From the sequence record PZ445537.1: a stretch of DNA of 45,054 nucleotides; one strand, given 5' to 3'. Source of the stretch: a phage. Each line of letters starts with the position of its first letter. Within the stretch, counting starts at the first letter, position 1. This document shows positions 4,356 to 9,971 of this stretch, piece by piece. The notes below the pieces were generated by a model, which was given only the letters and a program-made list of their open reading frames with translations, ran no database searches and was not told the origin of the DNA. A program made the translations under genes and the position numbers.

Positions 4356-4934
4356 ATGTCTGTGAAAGGACTGGAAAGGGCTATTCAGAACCTGAACAGC
4401 CTCAGCCGGTTAATCGTTCCTGAGGCAACCGCAAAAGCACTAAACCGGGTGGCCAGCAGAACGATAAGCCAGGGGAGCAAAGCTGTAGCGAAAGAAGCAA
4501 CAGTTGATGATAACCGGAAAAAGGGGCTTCCGGTTCGTCTGGTCCGCCAGCGTTCCCGTCTGCGCAAGGCCCGTCACGATCGCCCGGTCGCGTCGATAAA
4601 AATCAACCGCGGTAATCTTCCTGCGATAAAGCTTGGCACGGCGCGCGTCCGGCTCTCGCGTAAAAAAGGGGCCAGAAACGGAGCGGGCAGCGTCCTTAAA
4701 ATCGGGCCCTATACCTTTCGTAACGCTTTTATCCAACAGCTCTCGAACGGGCGCTGGCAGGTCATGCGGCGCGTAGGTCAGGCCCGTTATCCGATTGATG
4801 TGGTCAAAGTTCCTCTTGAGACACCGCTCACCGTGGCCTTCACCGCTATTTCAAAGCGCCTTATTGAAAGCGATATGCCCAAAGAACTTTCCGCAGCCCT
4901 GAAAAACCAACTGAGGATCCACCTGAAGCGATGA
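4356..4934 (+). CDS. minor tail protein Z-like (tail completion)
   Basis: 192 aa, same length as lambda gpZ, directly upstream of an unambiguous gpU homologue and coupled to it (ATGA at 4931-4934). Confidence 0.6.
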   Translation: MSVKGLERAIQNLNSLSRLIVPEATAKALNRVASRTISQGSKAVAKEATVDDNRKKGLPVRLVRQRSRLRKARHDRPVASIKINRGNLPAIKLGTARVRLSRKKGARNGAGSVLKIGPYTFRNAFIQQLSNGRWQVMRRVGQARYPIDVVKVPLETPLTVAFTAISKRLIESDMPKELSAALKNQLRIHLKR

Positions 4935-5332
4935 ACAGACACAGCGCAATTCGTGCAGCCATTCTGGCAAAACTGAAAGCCGAGATCACCGACACGGTCA
5001 CCTGGTTTGACGGGCGCCCTGTTTTTCTTGAAGAGCAGGATCTCCCTGCCGTGGCTGTATACCTTTCTGACGCGGAGTACACCGGCGATTCGCTTGACGA
5101 AGATTCGTGGCAGGCGGTTGTTCACATCGAGGTATTTCTTAAAGCCTCCAGCCCCGACAGCGCGCTTGATTCCTGGATGGAAGAGAAAGTGTATCCGGCA
5201 ATGGCCTTCATCCCGGGTCTGACCGAACTGGTCGAGACGTTCACCCCGCAGGGTTATGACTATCAGCGGGATGATGAAATGGCCACCTGGGGTTCAGTCG
5301 ATTTCACGTACTTAATCACCTATTCAATTTAA
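4931..5332 (+). CDS. U: tail terminator protein gpU
   Basis: 133 aa; clear collinear similarity to lambda gpU as recalled (FDGRP, FPAVAVYL, AEYTG, HIEVFL, GYDY-RDD, TY-ITY). Confidence 0.9.
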   Translation: MNRHSAIRAAILAKLKAEITDTVTWFDGRPVFLEEQDLPAVAVYLSDAEYTGDSLDEDSWQAVVHIEVFLKASSPDSALDSWMEEKVYPAMAFIPGLTELVETFTPQGYDYQRDDEMATWGSVDFTYLITYSI

Positions 5333-5341
5333 GAGGTACTT

Positions 5342-6085
5342 ATGCCTACTCCAAACCCGCTGGCCCCCGTGAAAGGTGCCGGTACCACCCTCTGGCTTTA
5401 CACCGGAACGGGCAACGCTTTCGCTAACCCACTCTCGGATATCGACTGGAACCGCCTGGCGAAAATTAAAGAGCTGACGCCGGGCGAAATGACCGCCGAA
5501 TCGTATGACGACACTTACCTCGACGACGAGGATGCCGACTGGAACGCGACGGCCCAGGGGGCAAAATCTGCTGGCGATACCTCGTTCACCCTCGCCTGGA
5601 AGCCGGGCGAAGAAGGGCAAAAAGACCTTGTCGCATGGTTTATTGATGGCTCAGTACGTTATTACAAAATCAAATACCCGAACGGTACCGTCGACGTTTT
5701 CCGCGGCTGGTGCAGCAGCCTGGGTAAAGCCATTCCGGCAAAAGAGGTCATTACCCGTACAGCGAAAATCACCAATACCGGCAAGCCGGAACTGGCAGAA
5801 GAAAGCGGGACCCCGAATATCCCCGTGACCGGCGTTACGCTCGATAAAGCCACGGCAAGCGTGGCCGTCGGCGCAACCACAACGCTCAATGTGGCGGTTA
5901 ACCCTGCCAGTGCCTCAGATACCTCGTTCCGCGTGGCAACCTCCGACGGGGCAAAAGCAACGGTCACCGTTAGCGGCAACGCGATCACCGTCACCGGCGT
6001 GGCGGCAGGCACCGCTGACGTTATTGTTATGACCAGCGACGGTAATTTCGTTGCGGTCTGCAAAGTCACCGTAACTGCAGCGTAA
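5342..6085 (+). CDS. V: major tail protein gpV with C-terminal Ig-like domain
   Basis: 247 aa; N-terminus [18 protein letters not shown] and the [33 protein letters not shown] blocks match lambda gpV almost residue for residue; strong RBS AAGAGG. Confidence 0.95.
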
Positions 6086-6095
6086 GGAAGGACGC

Positions 6096-6527
6096 ATGTT
6101 TCTGAAAAAAGAGAAGTTCACCTGGCAAACAGAATCCCTGACCATCTTCGAGCTGTCGGCGCTGCAGCGTATTGAGTACATCACGTTTATGGCCGCAGAG
6201 GAAAAGGCCGTCAGCGCTGACAGCGACGGCATCAGCGATCAGGAAATGACGGCCAGGCTGATAGGCTCAAATATTCGCTGCGGTGCGCGTTTGATCGCGA
6301 TGTCTTTGTGGCATAACGATCCGGCTGGCACGGATGTGGAAACGCTTTATCAGCAGGTGCTTAGCGGCTGGCCGCCAGAGGCGATCGGTAAAGCAGAAAT
6401 GGAAATAAAGCTGCTCTCCGGCATGCTCGTTCCGGTTGAGGGTGACAACGCTGCCGATCCGGATGCCTCAGCGGAGGCCGAAAGCGCTGAACCCGTTACG
6501 GCGGAAAAGCCCTTGCCAGCGAGCTGA
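6096..6527 (+). CDS. G: tail assembly chaperone gpG
   Basis: 143 aa; MFLK start, LSALQRIE and AMSLWHN blocks match lambda gpG; acidic C-terminus. Confidence 0.9.
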   Translation: MFLKKEKFTWQTESLTIFELSALQRIEYITFMAAEEKAVSADSDGISDQEMTARLIGSNIRCGARLIAMSLWHNDPAGTDVETLYQQVLSGWPPEAIGKAEMEIKLLSGMLVPVEGDNAADPDASAEAESAEPVTAEKPLPAS

Positions 6528-6850
6528 AGTTTGTCCTGAATCTGGCGCGCGAGTTCGGGCGACCCGACTGGCGCGCCATGCTGGCTGGAATGACTTCCAG
6601 TGAGCTGGGCGACTGGCACCAGTTCTATCGGGAGCATTATTTTCAGGACGCGCAGCTCGATGCGCATTTCTCAGAGCTGCTTTATTCCATCTCCACTCTT
6701 TTCTTCCGCGACCCAGAACTTACCCCCGCACATTTCAGCCTGCTTTCTCCTTCCGGTATCGTCATCAGCGATGACGAGCCGGATGATGATGCGCTGATGA
6801 CCGCAGCTGAGGGGATAACAGGAGGTATCCGATATGGCCCAGCAGATTAG
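6491..6850 (+). CDS. T: gpT frame, expressed as gpG-T fusion by -1 programmed frameshift
   Basis: The -1 frame relative to G is open from 6491 (after TGA 6488-6490) to the stop at 6848-6850, overlapping the last 12 codons of G; no good independent start or RBS. Arrangement matches the conserved lambdoid G/GT frameshift. Confidence 0.7.
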   Translation, partial: TRYGGKALASELKFVLNLAREFGRPDWRAMLAGMTSSELGDWHQFYREHYFQDAQLDAHFSELLYSISTLFFRDPELTPAHFSLLSPSGIVISDDEPDDDALMTAAEGITGGIRYGPAD

Positions 6851-9800
6851 CGATCTGGTCATCAACCTTGACGTCGACAGCGCCACGTTTAGTGAGCAGG
6901 TTGCCCGCATAAAGGGCCAGCTAACCGGGATGGCTGAGGACTCTGAAAAAGTCCAGACGCGAATGCAGCGCGCTTCCGAGCGGCAGGCGGCTGCGTTTAA
7001 AACCGTGGGCGACGCCGGCGCGGCGGCTGCCGCAGATATGAAATCCCGCCAGTCGGCCGCAACGGAAGGGCTGACCAAAGACTGGCAGAACGTTTCCAGG
7101 TCCGTTGATGAAACTCACCGCCGCGTGACCGAGCTTAATCAGCGCATGCGTGAGAATGACGGGCAGGCCGCAGCGCTTGCCCGTCGACAGGATGAACTGG
7201 CGGCATCATTTTTCCGCCAGATTGACGGCGTTCGCCAGCTCAATGGTGAGACACAGTCGCTTGCGAACGTGCAGGCGCGCTTTCGCGCAGCCAGGGCACA
7301 GGGCAACATAACCCAGCAGGATTATCTCGCCCTTATTTCCCGTACCACGGCCCGGCAAAAAGAACTGCAGATCGTGGAGGAAAAATCGGCCGCCGCGCGC
7401 ACGCGATTCCTCAGCCAGCTGAAGCAACAGGTTGCTGAGCAAAAGCTCTCCGGTACCGAGCTGCTGCGCATGAAGGCGGCGCAGGTCGGTGCCAGCGATG
7501 CGGCTGAGGTCTATATCCGCAAGCTTGAAGCTGCAAAAGTGGCCACGCACGGTCTGGGGCTGCAAAGCGCTGCTGCCCGGCAGGAGTTGGGGGTACTTAT
7601 CGGCGAGGTCATGCGCGGTAACTTCGGTGCGCTGCGCGGCTCCGGGATCACGCTGGCGAACCGGGCAGGATGGATAGACCAGCTGCTGTCGCTACGCGGC
7701 CTGGGGATCGCCGGCCTGGTTGGTGGGATTGCCGCGGCGGTATTCGGGCTGGGTAAGGCCTGGTATGACGGCAGCAAAGAGTCTGAGGAATTTAACAGGC
7801 AGCTGATCCTGACCGGGAACTACGCGGGGAAAACGTCAGGGCAGCTTCAGGCGCTGGCGCGCTCGCTGGCCGGTAATGGCATCACGCAGCATGCCGCTGC
7901 AGGCGTGCTGGCGCAGGTCGTTGGAAGCGGCGCGTTCAGCGGGAATGACGTCAGCATGGTCAGCAATGTTGCCGCCAGGCTGCAGCAGGCTACCGGGCAG
8001 GCCGTCGACGAAACCATAAATCAGTTTAAACGCCTGAAGGATGATCCGGTTAATGCGGTCGCGACGCTTAACGATTCCCTTCACTTTCTGACGGCCACCC
8101 AGTATGAACAGATTGCTTCTGCTCAGGCGCTGGGGGATTCGCAGAAAGCTGCCGAGCTGGCCATGCGGGCATATTCCGACGCGGTCATTCAGCGCGCCGG
8201 TGCGGTCGAGGATAATCTCGGAACCCTCGAAAAAGCCTGGAACTGGGTGAAGAATGCCGCCTCCGGCGCATGGGATGCGATGCTGGGCGTCGGGCGTAAT
8301 CCTGACACCGCGATGAAGCGCCAGGACTCTTTTGCTGAATGGCAGGCAGCAGAGAAAGAGTATCGCGCGCTGTCCAGCAATCTTAAAGTCGACCCGGATT
8401 ATGCCGGTAACAACGTTCTGCAGAAAGCGGATGCGGAAAGGCTCAGAAACGCGCGCCAGCAGGTGGAGCTGAAAAAGCAGGCTTACGATCTTGCCGATCA
8501 GCAATACGCCCAGGAAGGGCTGGCAGCCGCGCGGGAAAAAATGCGGACGGACCAGCAGGCTCAGGCAATCCGCAACCAGCAGCAGTTTAACCAGCTGGTG
8601 GAGTCCGGTGCGACGGCGGCAGAAAAGCGGGCTTCAGCAGAGAAAAAGCTCAGTCAGCTTATTGAGAAAAACCGCCAGGATGCGAAAGACGGTGTCGCCA
8701 CGCTGTGGACAGAAAAGGACATTGCCGCGGCCCGCGCCGGGATTGAAAAGCAGTGGAAGGATCCAAAAACGCCGAAAGGCAAAAGCTACGCAACGCCCGC
8801 CGGGGACAAAGCCGAGGAAAAGGCGCAGGCCGAACTTCTCACCCTTCAGGCCCAGCTTAAAACGCTTGAGCAGCATACCAGCGTGAACGACGTCATAAGT
8901 AAACAGCGTCAGGATCTCTGGCAGACTGAAAATCAGTTCACCGTTCTGCAGGAGGCGGCTGGGCGTCGTCAGCTTACGGCGCAGGAAAAATCCCTGCTGG
9001 CGCACAAGGAAGAAACGCTCGAGTACAAGCGGCAGCTGGCCGACCTGGGCGATAAGGTTGCCAGCCAGCAAAAGCTCAACCAGCTGGCCGATCAGGCCGT
9101 GAAGTTTGAGCAGCAGCAAAAAGCCGCCAGGGCGGGCCTGCAGGCTCAGTCTGAGGGGGTATCCACCCGGGAAGCCGGGCGACAAACTACGCTGCAGCGT
9201 CTCAGCGAAAGCTATTCGTACAACCCTCAGGCGCAGCAAAAGGTTCTGGAAGAGCAAAGGGCGACGTTCGAGGCTGAAGATGCCCTGCGCGCAAACTGGC
9301 TGGCCGGTGCGAAACAGGGCTGGGCCGAATATCAGGATTCAGCGACAAACGTTTTCAGCTCTGTTCAGCAGATTTCGCAGGCTACGTTCAGCGGGCTGGC
9401 GGGCCAGCTTACCAGCCTGACGACAACCGGGAAGGCGAGCTTCAGGGACTTCACCAGCTCGATCCTTAAAATGATTGTGTCCGTTATCAACCAGCTGCTG
9501 GTGGCTTATACCATCCAGAGCGCTATGGGCTGGGTGAGCGGCGGGGCGAAAACCTCCTCTGCAGGCCAGTCATTCGCGGTTCCGTCATTCCGGCCACAGG
9601 GCTATGACGTGGGCGGTTTTACCGGGCACGGCGGCAAATATGAGCCCGCAGGCGTGGTACATCGCGGGGAATTCGTATTCACCAAAGAATCGACCAGCCG
9701 CATCGGTGTGGCAAATCTCTATCGCCTCATGCGCGGGTATGCCTCGGGTGGTCTCGTCGGCAGCGGGAGCGCAGCCGGTGCTGGGATGGGTGGGATCAAT

Positions 9801-9971
9801 GTTTATGCCCCAGTCAGCATCAGCCAGCAGGGGGGAGACGGAAGCATAAATCAGGCGAACGCCACAGGGACGGCGAAACAGCTGCAGGCGATTGTTCAGC
9901 AGACAATCACCGAGCGACTGAAAAAAGAAATGTCCGCAGGCGGCGTGCTTTATTCGAGGAGGACACAGTGA
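6834..9971 (+). CDS. H: tail tape measure protein gpH
   Basis: 1045 aa; long collinear blocks match lambda gpH as recalled (LLTLQA-L-TLE-H, LW-E-QF-VL-EAA-RRQL-AQEKSLLAHK-ETLEYKRQLA-LGDKV, GGKYEPAG-VHRGEFVFTKE-TSRIGV-NLYRLMRGYA); RBS AGGAGG; start overlaps T stop. Confidence 0.95.
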   Translation: MAQQISDLVINLDVDSATFSEQVARIKGQLTGMAEDSEKVQTRMQRASERQAAAFKTVGDAGAAAAADMKSRQSAATEGLTKDWQNVSRSVDETHRRVTELNQRMRENDGQAAALARRQDELAASFFRQIDGVRQLNGETQSLANVQARFRAARAQGNITQQDYLALISRTTARQKELQIVEEKSAAARTRFLSQLKQQVAEQKLSGTELLRMKAAQVGASDAAEVYIRKLEAAKVATHGLGLQSAAARQELGVLIGEVMRGNFGALRGSGITLANRAGWIDQLLSLRGLGIAGLVGGIAAAVFGLGKAWYDGSKESEEFNRQLILTGNYAGKTSGQLQALARSLAGNGITQHAAAGVLAQVVGSGAFSGNDVSMVSNVAARLQQATGQAVDETINQFKRLKDDPVNAVATLNDSLHFLTATQYEQIASAQALGDSQKAAELAMRAYSDAVIQRAGAVEDNLGTLEKAWNWVKNAASGAWDAMLGVGRNPDTAMKRQDSFAEWQAAEKEYRALSSNLKVDPDYAGNNVLQKADAERLRNARQQVELKKQAYDLADQQYAQEGLAAAREKMRTDQQAQAIRNQQQFNQLVESGATAAEKRASAEKKLSQLIEKNRQDAKDGVATLWTEKDIAAARAGIEKQWKDPKTPKGKSYATPAGDKAEEKAQAELLTLQAQLKTLEQHTSVNDVISKQRQDLWQTENQFTVLQEAAGRRQLTAQEKSLLAHKEETLEYKRQLADLGDKVASQQKLNQLADQAVKFEQQQKAARAGLQAQSEGVSTREAGRQTTLQRLSESYSYNPQAQQKVLEEQRATFEAEDALRANWLAGAKQGWAEYQDSATNVFSSVQQISQATFSGLAGQLTSLTTTGKASFRDFTSSILKMIVSVINQLLVAYTIQSAMGWVSGGAKTSSAGQSFAVPSFRPQGYDVGGFTGHGGKYEPAGVVHRGEFVFTKESTSRIGVANLYRLMRGYASGGLVGSGSAAGAGMGGINVYAPVSISQQGGDGSINQANATGTAKQLQAIVQQTITERLKKEMSAGGVLYSRRTQ

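What the first reader, a model, noticed from the sequence alone, without database searches (positions are those of the whole stretch)
6491..6527. G/T programmed -1 frameshift window with a non-canonical slippery heptamer
The T frame is open in the -1 frame only from 6491 and has no start signal, so it must be reached from G by a frameshift within the 37-nt overlap. The only heptamer with a lysine A-site codon there is G-GAA-AAG (6503-6509), one substitution away from lambda's G-GGA-AAG, so P-site re-pairing would need a G-U pair at the middle position.
Basis: partly seen in the sequence, partly recalled or inferred. Interest (0 to 1): 0.5.

Follow-up and report, generated by a model that had tools for sequence, protein, structure and literature searches.

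The report
Known phi80/N15-type tail chaperone frameshift site
This is the ordinary ribosomal frameshift site that lets a lambda-like phage make a small amount of a fused tail-assembly protein (G-T); its slightly unusual slippery sequence GGAAAAG is real and conserved, but curated records of the close relatives phi80, LLS and N15 already mark it.

Summary
Gene G (6096-6527) overlaps a -1 frame that opens at 6491, after TGA 6488-6490, and runs to 6850. That frame has no start codon before ATG 6578. G_GAA_AAG (6503-6509) is the only in-register lysine slippery motif in the 37-nt overlap. The window is Escherichia phage Eeyore, a phi80-like phage. The same heptamer at the same position is already annotated as the -1 slippery sequence in phi80 (FN582354), phage LLS (PQ299149) and N15 (AF064539). 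Among 64 distinct homologous junctions, 58 have GGAAAAG, 3 GGGAAAG, 2 GGGAAAA and 1 AGAAAAG. Two Stx phages have A_AAA_AAG there. Third-codon-position variability switches from the G frame to the T frame exactly at the heptamer. The heptamer's first G is kept as the third base of six different codons. I found no convincing conserved stimulatory RNA element. Best explanation: low-level -1 programmed frameshifting by tRNA-Glu and tRNA-Lys, with a G·U pair in the middle of the P-site codon, giving a 251-aa G-T fusion. In-vitro work treats G_GAA_AAG as poorly slippery, which is mildly curious. Verdict: real, correctly read, already known, low interest. The practical gain is a fix to Eeyore's annotation, which starts T at the internal ATG.

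The parts
6096..6527 (+). Gene G, tail assembly chaperone (143 aa), zero frame
   Evidence: ORF list, translation, Pfam PF06894 Phage_TAC_2 at E=2e-28
6488..6490 (+). TGA stop in the -1 (T) frame that sets the 5' limit of the frameshift window
6491..6527 (+). 37-nt G/T overlap, within which the shift must occur
6503..6509 (+). Slippery heptamer G_GAA_AAG (P-site GAA Glu, A-site AAG Lys)
   Evidence: Sequence. The same heptamer is annotated as the -1 slippery sequence in phi80, LLS and N15. It is present in 58 of 64 distinct homologous junctions, with column entropies of 0-0.4 bit.
6509..6850 (+). T part of the G-T fusion in the -1 frame: first -1 codon GCC 6509-6511, 113 codons, stop 6848-6850. 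Predicted product is join(6096..6509,6509..6850), 251 aa.
   Evidence: Translations, Pfam PF06223 Phage_tail_T, and T-frame codon periodicity from the heptamer onward
6578..6580 (+). Internal ATG (Met of the conserved RAML motif) that Eeyore's record and PGAP use as the start of a separate 90-aa T; probably not a real start
   Evidence: The 5' stretch 6528-6577 is under T-frame coding constraint.
6543..6578 (+). Predicted GC-rich hairpin, 34 nt 3' of the heptamer. It is built from the conserved LAREFGRPDWRAM codons and is not supported as a stimulator.
5342..6085 (+). Major tail protein V (context)
   Evidence: Pfam PF16461 and Big_2
6834..9971 (+). Tape measure protein H (context); its start overlaps the end of T by 17 nt

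Best explanation
A small fraction of ribosomes translating gene G slip back one nucleotide on G_GAA_AAG (6503-6509). At that point peptidyl-tRNA-Glu sits on GAA and tRNA-Lys(UUU) on AAG. tRNA-Lys re-pairs perfectly from AAG to AAA. tRNA-Glu re-pairs from GAA to GGA with a G·U pair at the middle position. Translation then continues in the -1 frame from GCC 6509 to the stop at 6848-6850. The product is a 251-aa G-T fusion (...EPVTAEK|ALASELKF...) alongside abundant 143-aa G, as in phage lambda. There, the G part binds the tape measure protein and the T part recruits the major tail protein. Shown here: the ORF geometry, the homology, the conservation of the heptamer, and the frame switch at the heptamer. 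Inferred: that both tRNAs slip together rather than the A-site tRNA alone, the frameshift efficiency, and the protein's role (taken from lambda).
For: The geometry fits, and no start codon exists in the T frame before 6578. G, T, U, V and H match the lambda tail-module Pfam families in lambda's gene order. The window is 100% identical to phage Eeyore and 95% identical to phi80. Curated records mark this very heptamer as the -1 slippery sequence, with a joined G-T CDS in phi80 and LLS and the downstream half of the frameshift product annotated in N15. In 64 distinct junctions down to about 40% protein identity, the heptamer is GGAAAAG in 58, GGGAAAG in 3, GGGAAAA in 2 and AGAAAAG in 1. VT1-Sakai and Stx2_14040 have A_AAA_AAG there, and Fels-1 has G_GAA_AAG. 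All of these are -1 slippery or near-slippery motifs at one homologous position. The overlaps narrow to 16 nt in L133 and still hold the heptamer. Upstream of the heptamer the variable columns are G-frame third positions (1.6, 1.2 and 1.8 bits). Downstream they are T-frame third positions, including the stretch between G's stop and ATG 6578 (0.79 against 0.22 and 0.18 bit). The first G of the heptamer is the third base of GCG, CTG, GTG, CCG, TTG or ATG in 63 of 64 sequences. That is nucleotide-level selection consistent with P-site re-pairing. The AAG-to-AAA re-pairing of tRNA-Lys is energetically favourable, and A_AAG is the most shift-prone tetramer in E. coli.
Against: There is no direct protein or reporter evidence for this phage, and I could find none for phi80 or N15. 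In a reconstituted E. coli system G_GAA_AAG served as the 'unfavourable, less slippery' comparison to G_GGA_AAG and gave mainly zero-frame product (Peng et al. 2019, PMC6924986). A_AAG alone is at background level without a stimulator (Sharma et al. 2014, PMC4066793). I found no convincing conserved stimulator. The same heptamer occurs in the same register at 6200-6206 in G and at 8816-8822 in H, where there is no -1 ORF to reach. The motif alone is therefore weak and not diagnostic. One homologue (L087) has A_GAA_AAG, which would lose P-site first-position pairing as well.
Confidence: 0.9

Rival explanations
1. Single-tRNA slippage. Only the A-site tRNA-Lys slips on A_AAG, as in the hexanucleotide NNA_AAG motifs of IS1222 and B. 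subtilis cdd. The P-site tRNA-Glu does not re-pair meaningfully. This yields the same site and the same product by a different micro-mechanism.
For: NNA_AAG motifs are documented -1 sites (review PMC5009743). Homologue L087 has A_GAA_AAG, which leaves two P-site mismatches. [quoted passage not shown]
Against: The P-site codon is only ever GAA or GGA. The preceding base is G in 63 of 64 junctions despite six different codons. That conservation is unnecessary if only A_AAG mattered. According to the review's summary of the NNA_AAG work, NNA codons read by tRNAs with broad wobble would serve better than GAA.
Confidence: 0.25
2. T is made as an independent 90-aa protein from ATG 6578, as annotated in Eeyore's GenBank record and by PGAP in E. 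coli prophages, and no frameshift occurs.
For: An ATG exists at 6578, and automated annotations use it.
Against: No Shine-Dalgarno motif precedes it. The ATG encodes the Met of the conserved RAML motif. The 70 nt 5' of it show T-frame codon periodicity and encode the conserved KALASELKF..LAREFGRPDWRA sequence shared with lambda and N15. The T-frame upstream stop lies at different distances in different relatives but always 5' of the heptamer.
Confidence: 0.03
3. The weak heptamer is boosted by a downstream RNA structure. The candidate is a stem 6515-6520/6580-6585 starting 5 nt after the heptamer and enclosing the GC-rich hairpin 6543-6578. That would make this a stimulated frameshift of the dnaX or IS type.
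For: The fold of 6503-6600 is more stable than shuffled sequence (-43.7 kcal/mol, z = -2.84). The outer stem begins at a typical 5-nt spacing.
Against: The outer stem has one pair broken in 30 of 64 homologues and shows almost no compensatory change. The inner hairpin lies 34 nt downstream and consists of codons for an invariant peptide, so its conservation is explained by the protein. The consensus fold is only -7.6 kcal/mol, with a covariation term of -0.5. Distant homologues that keep GGAAAAG (Providencia, Sodalis) lose the pairing.
Confidence: 0.1
4. RNA polymerase slippage on the A run produces an mRNA with one base added or lost, and G-T is translated from that edited mRNA.
For: None specific; the heptamer contains AAAA.
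Against: From established knowledge, four A residues are well below the length at which transcriptional slippage is seen. The conserved flanking G residues mean nothing for RNA polymerase slippage but do fit tRNA re-pairing.
Confidence: 0.01

Closest known systems
Phage phi80 G / G-T (FN582354), phage LLS genes 11/12 (PQ299149) and phage N15 gp14/gp15 (AF064539)
   Same: Homologous genes: the segment is 95% identical in DNA to phi80 and LLS, and about 75% identical to N15 over the part that aligns. The heptamer GGAAAAG is identical and sits at the same position. It is already annotated as the '-1 slippery sequence' or '-1 programmed translational frameshift site GGAAAAG', with a joined G-T CDS in phi80 and LLS and the downstream half of the frameshift product in N15.
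   Different: Nothing of substance. In the window a TGA at 6488 shortens the overlap to 37 nt, against 82-85 nt in LLS and phi80. Eeyore's own record lacks the slippage annotation.
Phage lambda G / GT -1 programmed frameshift at G_GGA_AAG (Levin, Hendrix & Casjens 1993; Xu, Hendrix & Duda 2004, 2013, 2014; cited from review PMC5009743 and from memory)
   Same: The same protein families (PF06894, PF06223), the same gene order U-V-G-T-H, the same shift position in the alignment, and the same A-site codon AAG.
   Different: The P-site codon is GAA (Glu) rather than GGA (Gly). P-site re-pairing is therefore near-cognate, with G·U at position 2, rather than cognate. The efficiency here is unmeasured.
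Hexanucleotide NNA_AAG -1 sites (IS1222 G_CGA_AAG, B. subtilis cdd A_CGA_AAG; Licznar et al. 2003 as summarised in PMC5009743)
   Same: Slippage driven by tRNA-Lys on A_AAG, with a P-site tRNA that cannot re-pair perfectly.
   Different: Here the base before the P-site codon is conserved as G, which gives two of three P-site pairs plus a G·U. The site is thus intermediate between a hexamer and a true heptamer.
Non-canonical G_GA-type heptamers of eukaryotic RNA viruses (insect-specific flaviviruses, umbraviruses, dianthoviruses, mesoniviruses; PMC5009743)
   Same: The X_XX part is G_GA, with the same middle-position mismatch after the shift.
   Different: These involve eukaryotic ribosomes, different A-site codons, and usually strong downstream stimulators.
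E. coli dnaX A_AAA_AAG
   Same: -1 frameshifting that relies on tRNA-Lys(UUU) preferring AAA over AAG.
   Different: dnaX has an upstream Shine-Dalgarno-like element and a downstream hairpin and shifts at about 50-80%. No such conserved elements were found here. In the window the nearest GGAGG lies 25 nt upstream.

Membership tests
Lambda-type tail assembly chaperone G/GT programmed -1 frameshift | Two overlapping ORFs located between the major tail protein gene and the tape measure gene | tested here: met
   U 4931-5332, V 5342-6085, G 6096-6527, T frame to 6850, H 6834-9971
Lambda-type tail assembly chaperone G/GT programmed -1 frameshift | The downstream ORF is in the -1 frame relative to the upstream ORF and has no start signal of its own | tested here: met
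   G codons start at positions with remainder 0 modulo 3 and T codons at remainder 2. There is no ATG/GTG/TTG in the T frame from 6491 to 6577, and no Shine-Dalgarno motif before ATG 6578.
Lambda-type tail assembly chaperone G/GT programmed -1 frameshift | Sequence homology of both parts to lambda gpG and gpT | tested here: met
   PF06894 at E=2e-28 and PF06223 at E=1e-13. The T part is 57% identical to lambda T.
Lambda-type tail assembly chaperone G/GT programmed -1 frameshift | A slippery sequence in the overlap, conserved in position among relatives | tested here: met
   Columns 10-16 of the 64-sequence alignment are invariant or nearly so. The variants seen are all slippery-type (GGGAAAG, GGGAAAA, AAAAAAG).
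Lambda-type tail assembly chaperone G/GT programmed -1 frameshift | Coding constraint switches from the zero frame to the -1 frame at the slippery site | tested here: met
   The third-position entropy pattern switches at the heptamer.
Lambda-type tail assembly chaperone G/GT programmed -1 frameshift | A trans-frame G-T protein is actually produced at a low ratio to G | not testable with these tools
   This needs a Western blot, mass spectrometry or a reporter assay. The exact fusion sequences are absent from the protein collection, which holds gene calls made without slippage.
Canonical X_XXY_YYZ slippery heptamer (strict definition, XXX identical) | The first three bases are identical, so the P-site tRNA re-pairs at positions 1 and 2 by Watson-Crick pairs | tested here: not met
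   The first three bases are G_GA, not G_GG, so the -1 P-site codon GGA faces the tRNA-Glu anticodon with G·U at position 2 (Peng et al.). The site fits the relaxed 'G_GA' class listed in PMC5009743.
Stimulated bacterial -1 PRF (dnaX / IS3 / IS911 type) | A conserved downstream hairpin or pseudoknot 5-9 nt after the motif, and/or a Shine-Dalgarno-like element 10-14 nt upstream | tested here: not met
   The outer stem is broken in 30 of 64 sequences. The hairpin lies 34 nt downstream and is explained by an invariant peptide. The consensus fold is -7.6 kcal/mol. GGAGG lies 25 nt upstream in the window; its conservation in relatives was not tested.
Hexanucleotide NNA_AAG -1 motif | An A_AAG A-site tetramer preceded by an NNA codon whose tRNA cannot re-pair cognately | tested here: met
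   GAA_AAG is present. However, the preceding G is conserved, which argues that the functional unit is the heptamer.

The most novel reading that the evidence does not exclude
G_GAA_AAG, which ribosome biochemists used as the poorly slippery comparison to G_GGA_AAG, is the predominant and strongly conserved shift site of the whole phi80/N15/Fels-1 branch of lambda-type tail chaperone genes (58 of 64 distinct junctions sampled). It appears to work without a recognisable stimulator. If so, one of three things follows. In vivo ribosomes may tolerate a second-position G·U in the P site far better than the in-vitro data suggest. These phages may assemble tails with a much lower GT:G ratio than lambda's roughly 1:30. 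Or an unrecognised stimulator exists, such as the nascent peptide, the nearby stop codon or a long-range RNA contact.
Probability: 0.25. Interest if true: 0.4.

Novelty: already known. Interest (0 to 1): 0.15.

Why it matters
There are two practical points. First, Eeyore's GenBank record and NCBI's automated PGAP annotation of the same module in E. coli prophages call T as a separate 90-aa gene from an internal ATG. They miss the fusion join(6096..6509,6509..6850). Pattern searches restricted to strict X_XXY_YYZ motifs would also miss this branch. Second, the site offers a natural, strongly conserved test case for P-site second-position G·U tolerance in bacterial -1 frameshifting. Neither point changes what is known about how tail assembly chaperones are expressed.

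Tried and rejected
1. Downstream stimulator. I folded 6503-6600 and 6510-6560, then tested the resulting stems on a 64-sequence alignment. The hairpin at 6543-6578 is real as a prediction. However, it lies 34 nt from the heptamer, is made of codons for an invariant peptide and shows almost no compensatory change. The stem that would sit 5 nt after the heptamer is broken in nearly half the homologues. I rejected it as an established stimulator.

2. Upstream Shine-Dalgarno-like stimulator. In the window, GGAGG at 6473-6477 is 25 nt upstream, outside the 10-14 nt range known to be effective. Its conservation in relatives was not checked. Rejected on spacing.

3. Other shift sites in the overlap. 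Reading every G-frame codon from 6492 to 6524 gives no other Z_ZZN tetramer.

4. Promoter and terminator scan of 5900-7000: nothing relevant.

5. Literature. Searches for GGAAAAG or 'G GAA AAG' with frameshift, phage or tail terms found no paper on this heptamer in phage tail genes; the only relevant hit was Peng et al. 2019. Rotman et al. 2012, Xu et al. 2004 and Xu et al. 2013 are not held in the library. I therefore could not check whether Xu et al. list this heptamer, and any statement about their survey is from memory.

6. Exact look-up of the predicted G-T fusions of Eeyore, phi80 and N15 in the protein collection: absent. This is uninformative, because that collection holds gene calls made without slippage.

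7. Rarity of the bare heptamer: it is not rarer or commoner than chance, so it carries no weight alone.

Full report
**Observation.** The coordinates and the geometry are correct. Gene G runs from ATG 6096 to TGA 6525-6527. The frame one nucleotide behind it carries TGA at 6488-6490 and is then open from 6491 to the stop at 6848-6850. The two frames therefore overlap by 37 nt.

The ORF list shows that the first ATG/GTG/TTG in the T frame is ATG 6578. The bases just before it (CGACCCGACTGGCGCGCC) contain no Shine-Dalgarno motif.

In the G frame the site reads GCG GAA AAG. Positions 6503-6509 are thus G_GAA_AAG in the X_XXY_YYZ register. No other G-frame codon in the overlap forms a Z_ZZN tetramer.

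After a -1 shift, tRNA-Lys would move from AAG to AAA. tRNA-Glu would move from GAA to GGA, which gives a G·U pair at the middle position.

**What the window is.** The segment is 100% identical to Escherichia phage Eeyore (PP925821). It is about 95% identical to phi80 and phage LLS, and 88% identical to mEp213 and mEp043. Pfam places the neighbouring genes in the lambda tail module in lambda's order:
- U: PF06141
- V: PF16461 plus Big_2
- G: PF06894
- T: PF06223
- H: PF06791 and PF09718

**Prior annotation.** The phi80 record FN582354 has a joined 'gpG-T' CDS and a misc_feature 'slippery sequence for -1 translational frameshift' at the position equivalent to 6503-6509. The N15 record AF064539 marks the same heptamer as the slippery sequence and calls gene 15 the 'downstream half of translational frameshift product'. 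The site is therefore already known in close relatives.

By contrast, Eeyore's own record, the other phi80 record (JX871397) and PGAP's annotation of E. coli prophages call T as a separate 90-aa CDS from the internal ATG.

**Comparative test.** I collected T homologues from IMG/VR (80 loci) and from GTDB genomes (45 loci), plus curated phage records.
- Among 64 distinct 112-nt junction sequences, which align without gaps, the heptamer is GGAAAAG in 58, GGGAAAG in 3, GGGAAAA in 2 and AGAAAAG in 1.
- VT1-Sakai and Stx2_14040 carry A_AAA_AAG at the same place, and Fels-1 carries G_GAA_AAG. One homologous position thus holds a small set of interchangeable -1 slippery motifs. GGAAAAG is the commonest form in this sample, although the sample is biased towards relatives of the query.
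- The T-frame upstream stop and the G stop move about among relatives, giving overlaps of 16 to 85 nt. The heptamer is always inside the overlap. In Providencia heimbachae (L133) the overlap is only 16 nt and consists of little more than the heptamer followed by TAG.

**Frame switch.** Column entropies show where the coding constraint changes.
- Upstream of the heptamer, the variable columns are G-frame third positions: columns 1, 4 and 7, at 1.6, 1.2 and 1.8 bits.
- Column 10 is also a G-frame third position, but it has 0.12 bit. It is G in 63 of 64 sequences although the codon is variously GCG, CTG, GTG, CCG, TTG or ATG.
- Downstream of the heptamer, the variable columns are T-frame third positions.
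- This includes the stretch between G's stop and ATG 6578, where position 3 has 0.79 bit against 0.22 and 0.18 for positions 1 and 2.

The region 5' of ATG 6578 is therefore translated in the T frame, starting at the heptamer. This rules out independent initiation of T for practical purposes. The conserved synonymous G argues that the first base of the heptamer matters, which favours re-pairing of the P-site tRNA. Related sequences are not independent observations, so these counts are descriptive rather than a formal test.

**Stimulators.** The RNA from 6503 to 6600 folds more stably than shuffled sequence (-43.7 kcal/mol, z = -2.84). The fold has a GC-rich hairpin at 6543-6578 and an outer stem 6515-6520/6580-6585 that would begin 5 nt after the heptamer.

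On the 64-sequence alignment one pair of the outer stem is broken in 30 sequences. The hairpin varies almost only by G·U wobble. It is built from the codons of the invariant LAREFGRPDWRAM peptide. The consensus fold is weak: -7.6 kcal/mol with a covariation term of -0.5. Distant homologues that keep GGAAAAG lose the pairing. The nearest Shine-Dalgarno-like GGAGG lies 25 nt upstream in the window, outside the 10-14 nt range known to be effective. I conclude that no conserved stimulator is demonstrable.

**How the heptamer compares with what is known.** Peng et al. 2019 (PMC6924986) used AUG GAA AAG as the comparison in which 'only one tRNA can slip'. They called it unfavourable because of the second-position mismatch, and saw mainly zero-frame product, in contrast to G GGA AAG.

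Sharma et al. 2014 (PMC4066793) found Z_ZZN tetramers at about background without a stimulator, and A_AAG at 5.6% with the IS3 pseudoknot. Bock et al. 2019 (PMC6787027) showed that the AAG-to-AAA change for tRNA-Lys is favourable (-2.9 kJ/mol). They also showed that a single G·U mismatch at a first codon position costs about 5 kJ/mol yet still allows substantial frameshifting.

The review by Atkins et al. 2016 (PMC5009743) lists NNA_AAG hexamer sites and 'G_GA' heptamers as recognised intermediates. It also notes that lambda needs only a 30:1 G:GT ratio. A weak motif is therefore compatible with the biology.

The window is consistent with low intrinsic slipperiness. It holds 11 copies of GGAAAAG against 7.6 +/- 2.7 expected. 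Two further copies are in the same register, at 6200-6206 inside G and at 8816-8822 inside H, where a shift would only truncate the protein.

**Mechanism.** The best-supported model is low-level -1 programmed frameshifting at 6503-6509, producing a 251-aa G-T fusion, join(6096..6509,6509..6850). I put confidence at about 0.9 for the site and the product.

It is not settled whether both tRNAs slip together with a P-site G·U, or whether only tRNA-Lys slips. The conserved first G and the restriction of the P-site codon to GAA or GGA favour slippage of both tRNAs. The single A_GAA_AAG homologue and the in-vitro data leave room for slippage of tRNA-Lys alone. Transcriptional slippage is implausible on four A residues.

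**Verdict.** The finding is real and was correctly interpreted. It is already known, because curated records of phi80, LLS and N15 carry the identical annotation. The residual interest is modest. A heptamer treated as nearly non-slippery in vitro is the conserved natural shift site of a large phage lineage, and automated annotation systematically misses it.

Noticed in passing
window 6200-6206: A second G_GAA_AAG sits in the same reading register inside gene G (GAG GAA AAG GCC). A -1 shift there would stop after 4 codons at 6218. The same 7-mer lies at the same offset in 34 of the fetched loci, but it is absent from phi80 and mEp213.
   Followed up: partly
window 8816-8822: A third in-register G_GAA_AAG lies inside the tape measure gene H; the -1 frame stops after 12 codons. 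Overall there are 11 copies in the window against 7.6 +/- 2.7 expected, so the motif is not avoided.
   Followed up: partly
window 6104-6110: G_AAA_AAA lies in register at codons 3-5 of gene G (CTG AAA AAA) and is conserved in phi80 and mEp213. A -1 shift there would end after 21 codons.
   Followed up: no
window 6543-6578: A predicted GC-rich hairpin, GGCGCGC...GCGCGCC with inner TCGGG/CCCGA, lies within the T coding sequence. It overlaps the invariant LAREFGRPDWRAM codons and is largely retained in lambda through G·U wobbles.
   Followed up: yes
window 6578-6850; L003 1983-2255; L140 679-951: Eeyore's GenBank record and NCBI PGAP (E. coli CUWW10 prophage) annotate T as an independent 90-aa CDS from the internal ATG and have no ribosomal-slippage join.
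   Followed up: yes
L040 1198-1204; L132 1198-1204; L087 1198-1204: There are rare heptamer variants at the homologous site. GGGAAAA occurs in an otherwise phi80-like contig and in Providencia rustigianii. AGAAAAG occurs in one IMG/VR contig.
   Followed up: partly
L129, L132, L133 (Providencia), around 1198-1207: The zero-frame stop codon TAG follows the heptamer directly (G_GAA_AAG_TAG or G_GGA_AAA_TAG). From memory, an adjacent stop codon is a known enhancer of frameshifting. In the L055-type loci the stop is one codon further on.
   Followed up: no
L108-L121, L124, L125: Lambda-type G/T sequences, all with the same 56% identity to the query, turn up in assemblies of unrelated organisms (Kitasatospora, Neobacillus, Oceanobacillus, Pseudomonas, Shewanella, Enterococcus, Leeuwenhoekiella). 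Many are on short or very low-coverage contigs. Most are probably lambda control-DNA contamination.
   Followed up: no
window 6760-6776: An inverted repeat, CGTCATC-AGC-GATGACG, lies inside the T coding region. The phi80 record JX871397 marks an 'IR2' repeat pair at the corresponding place.
   Followed up: no
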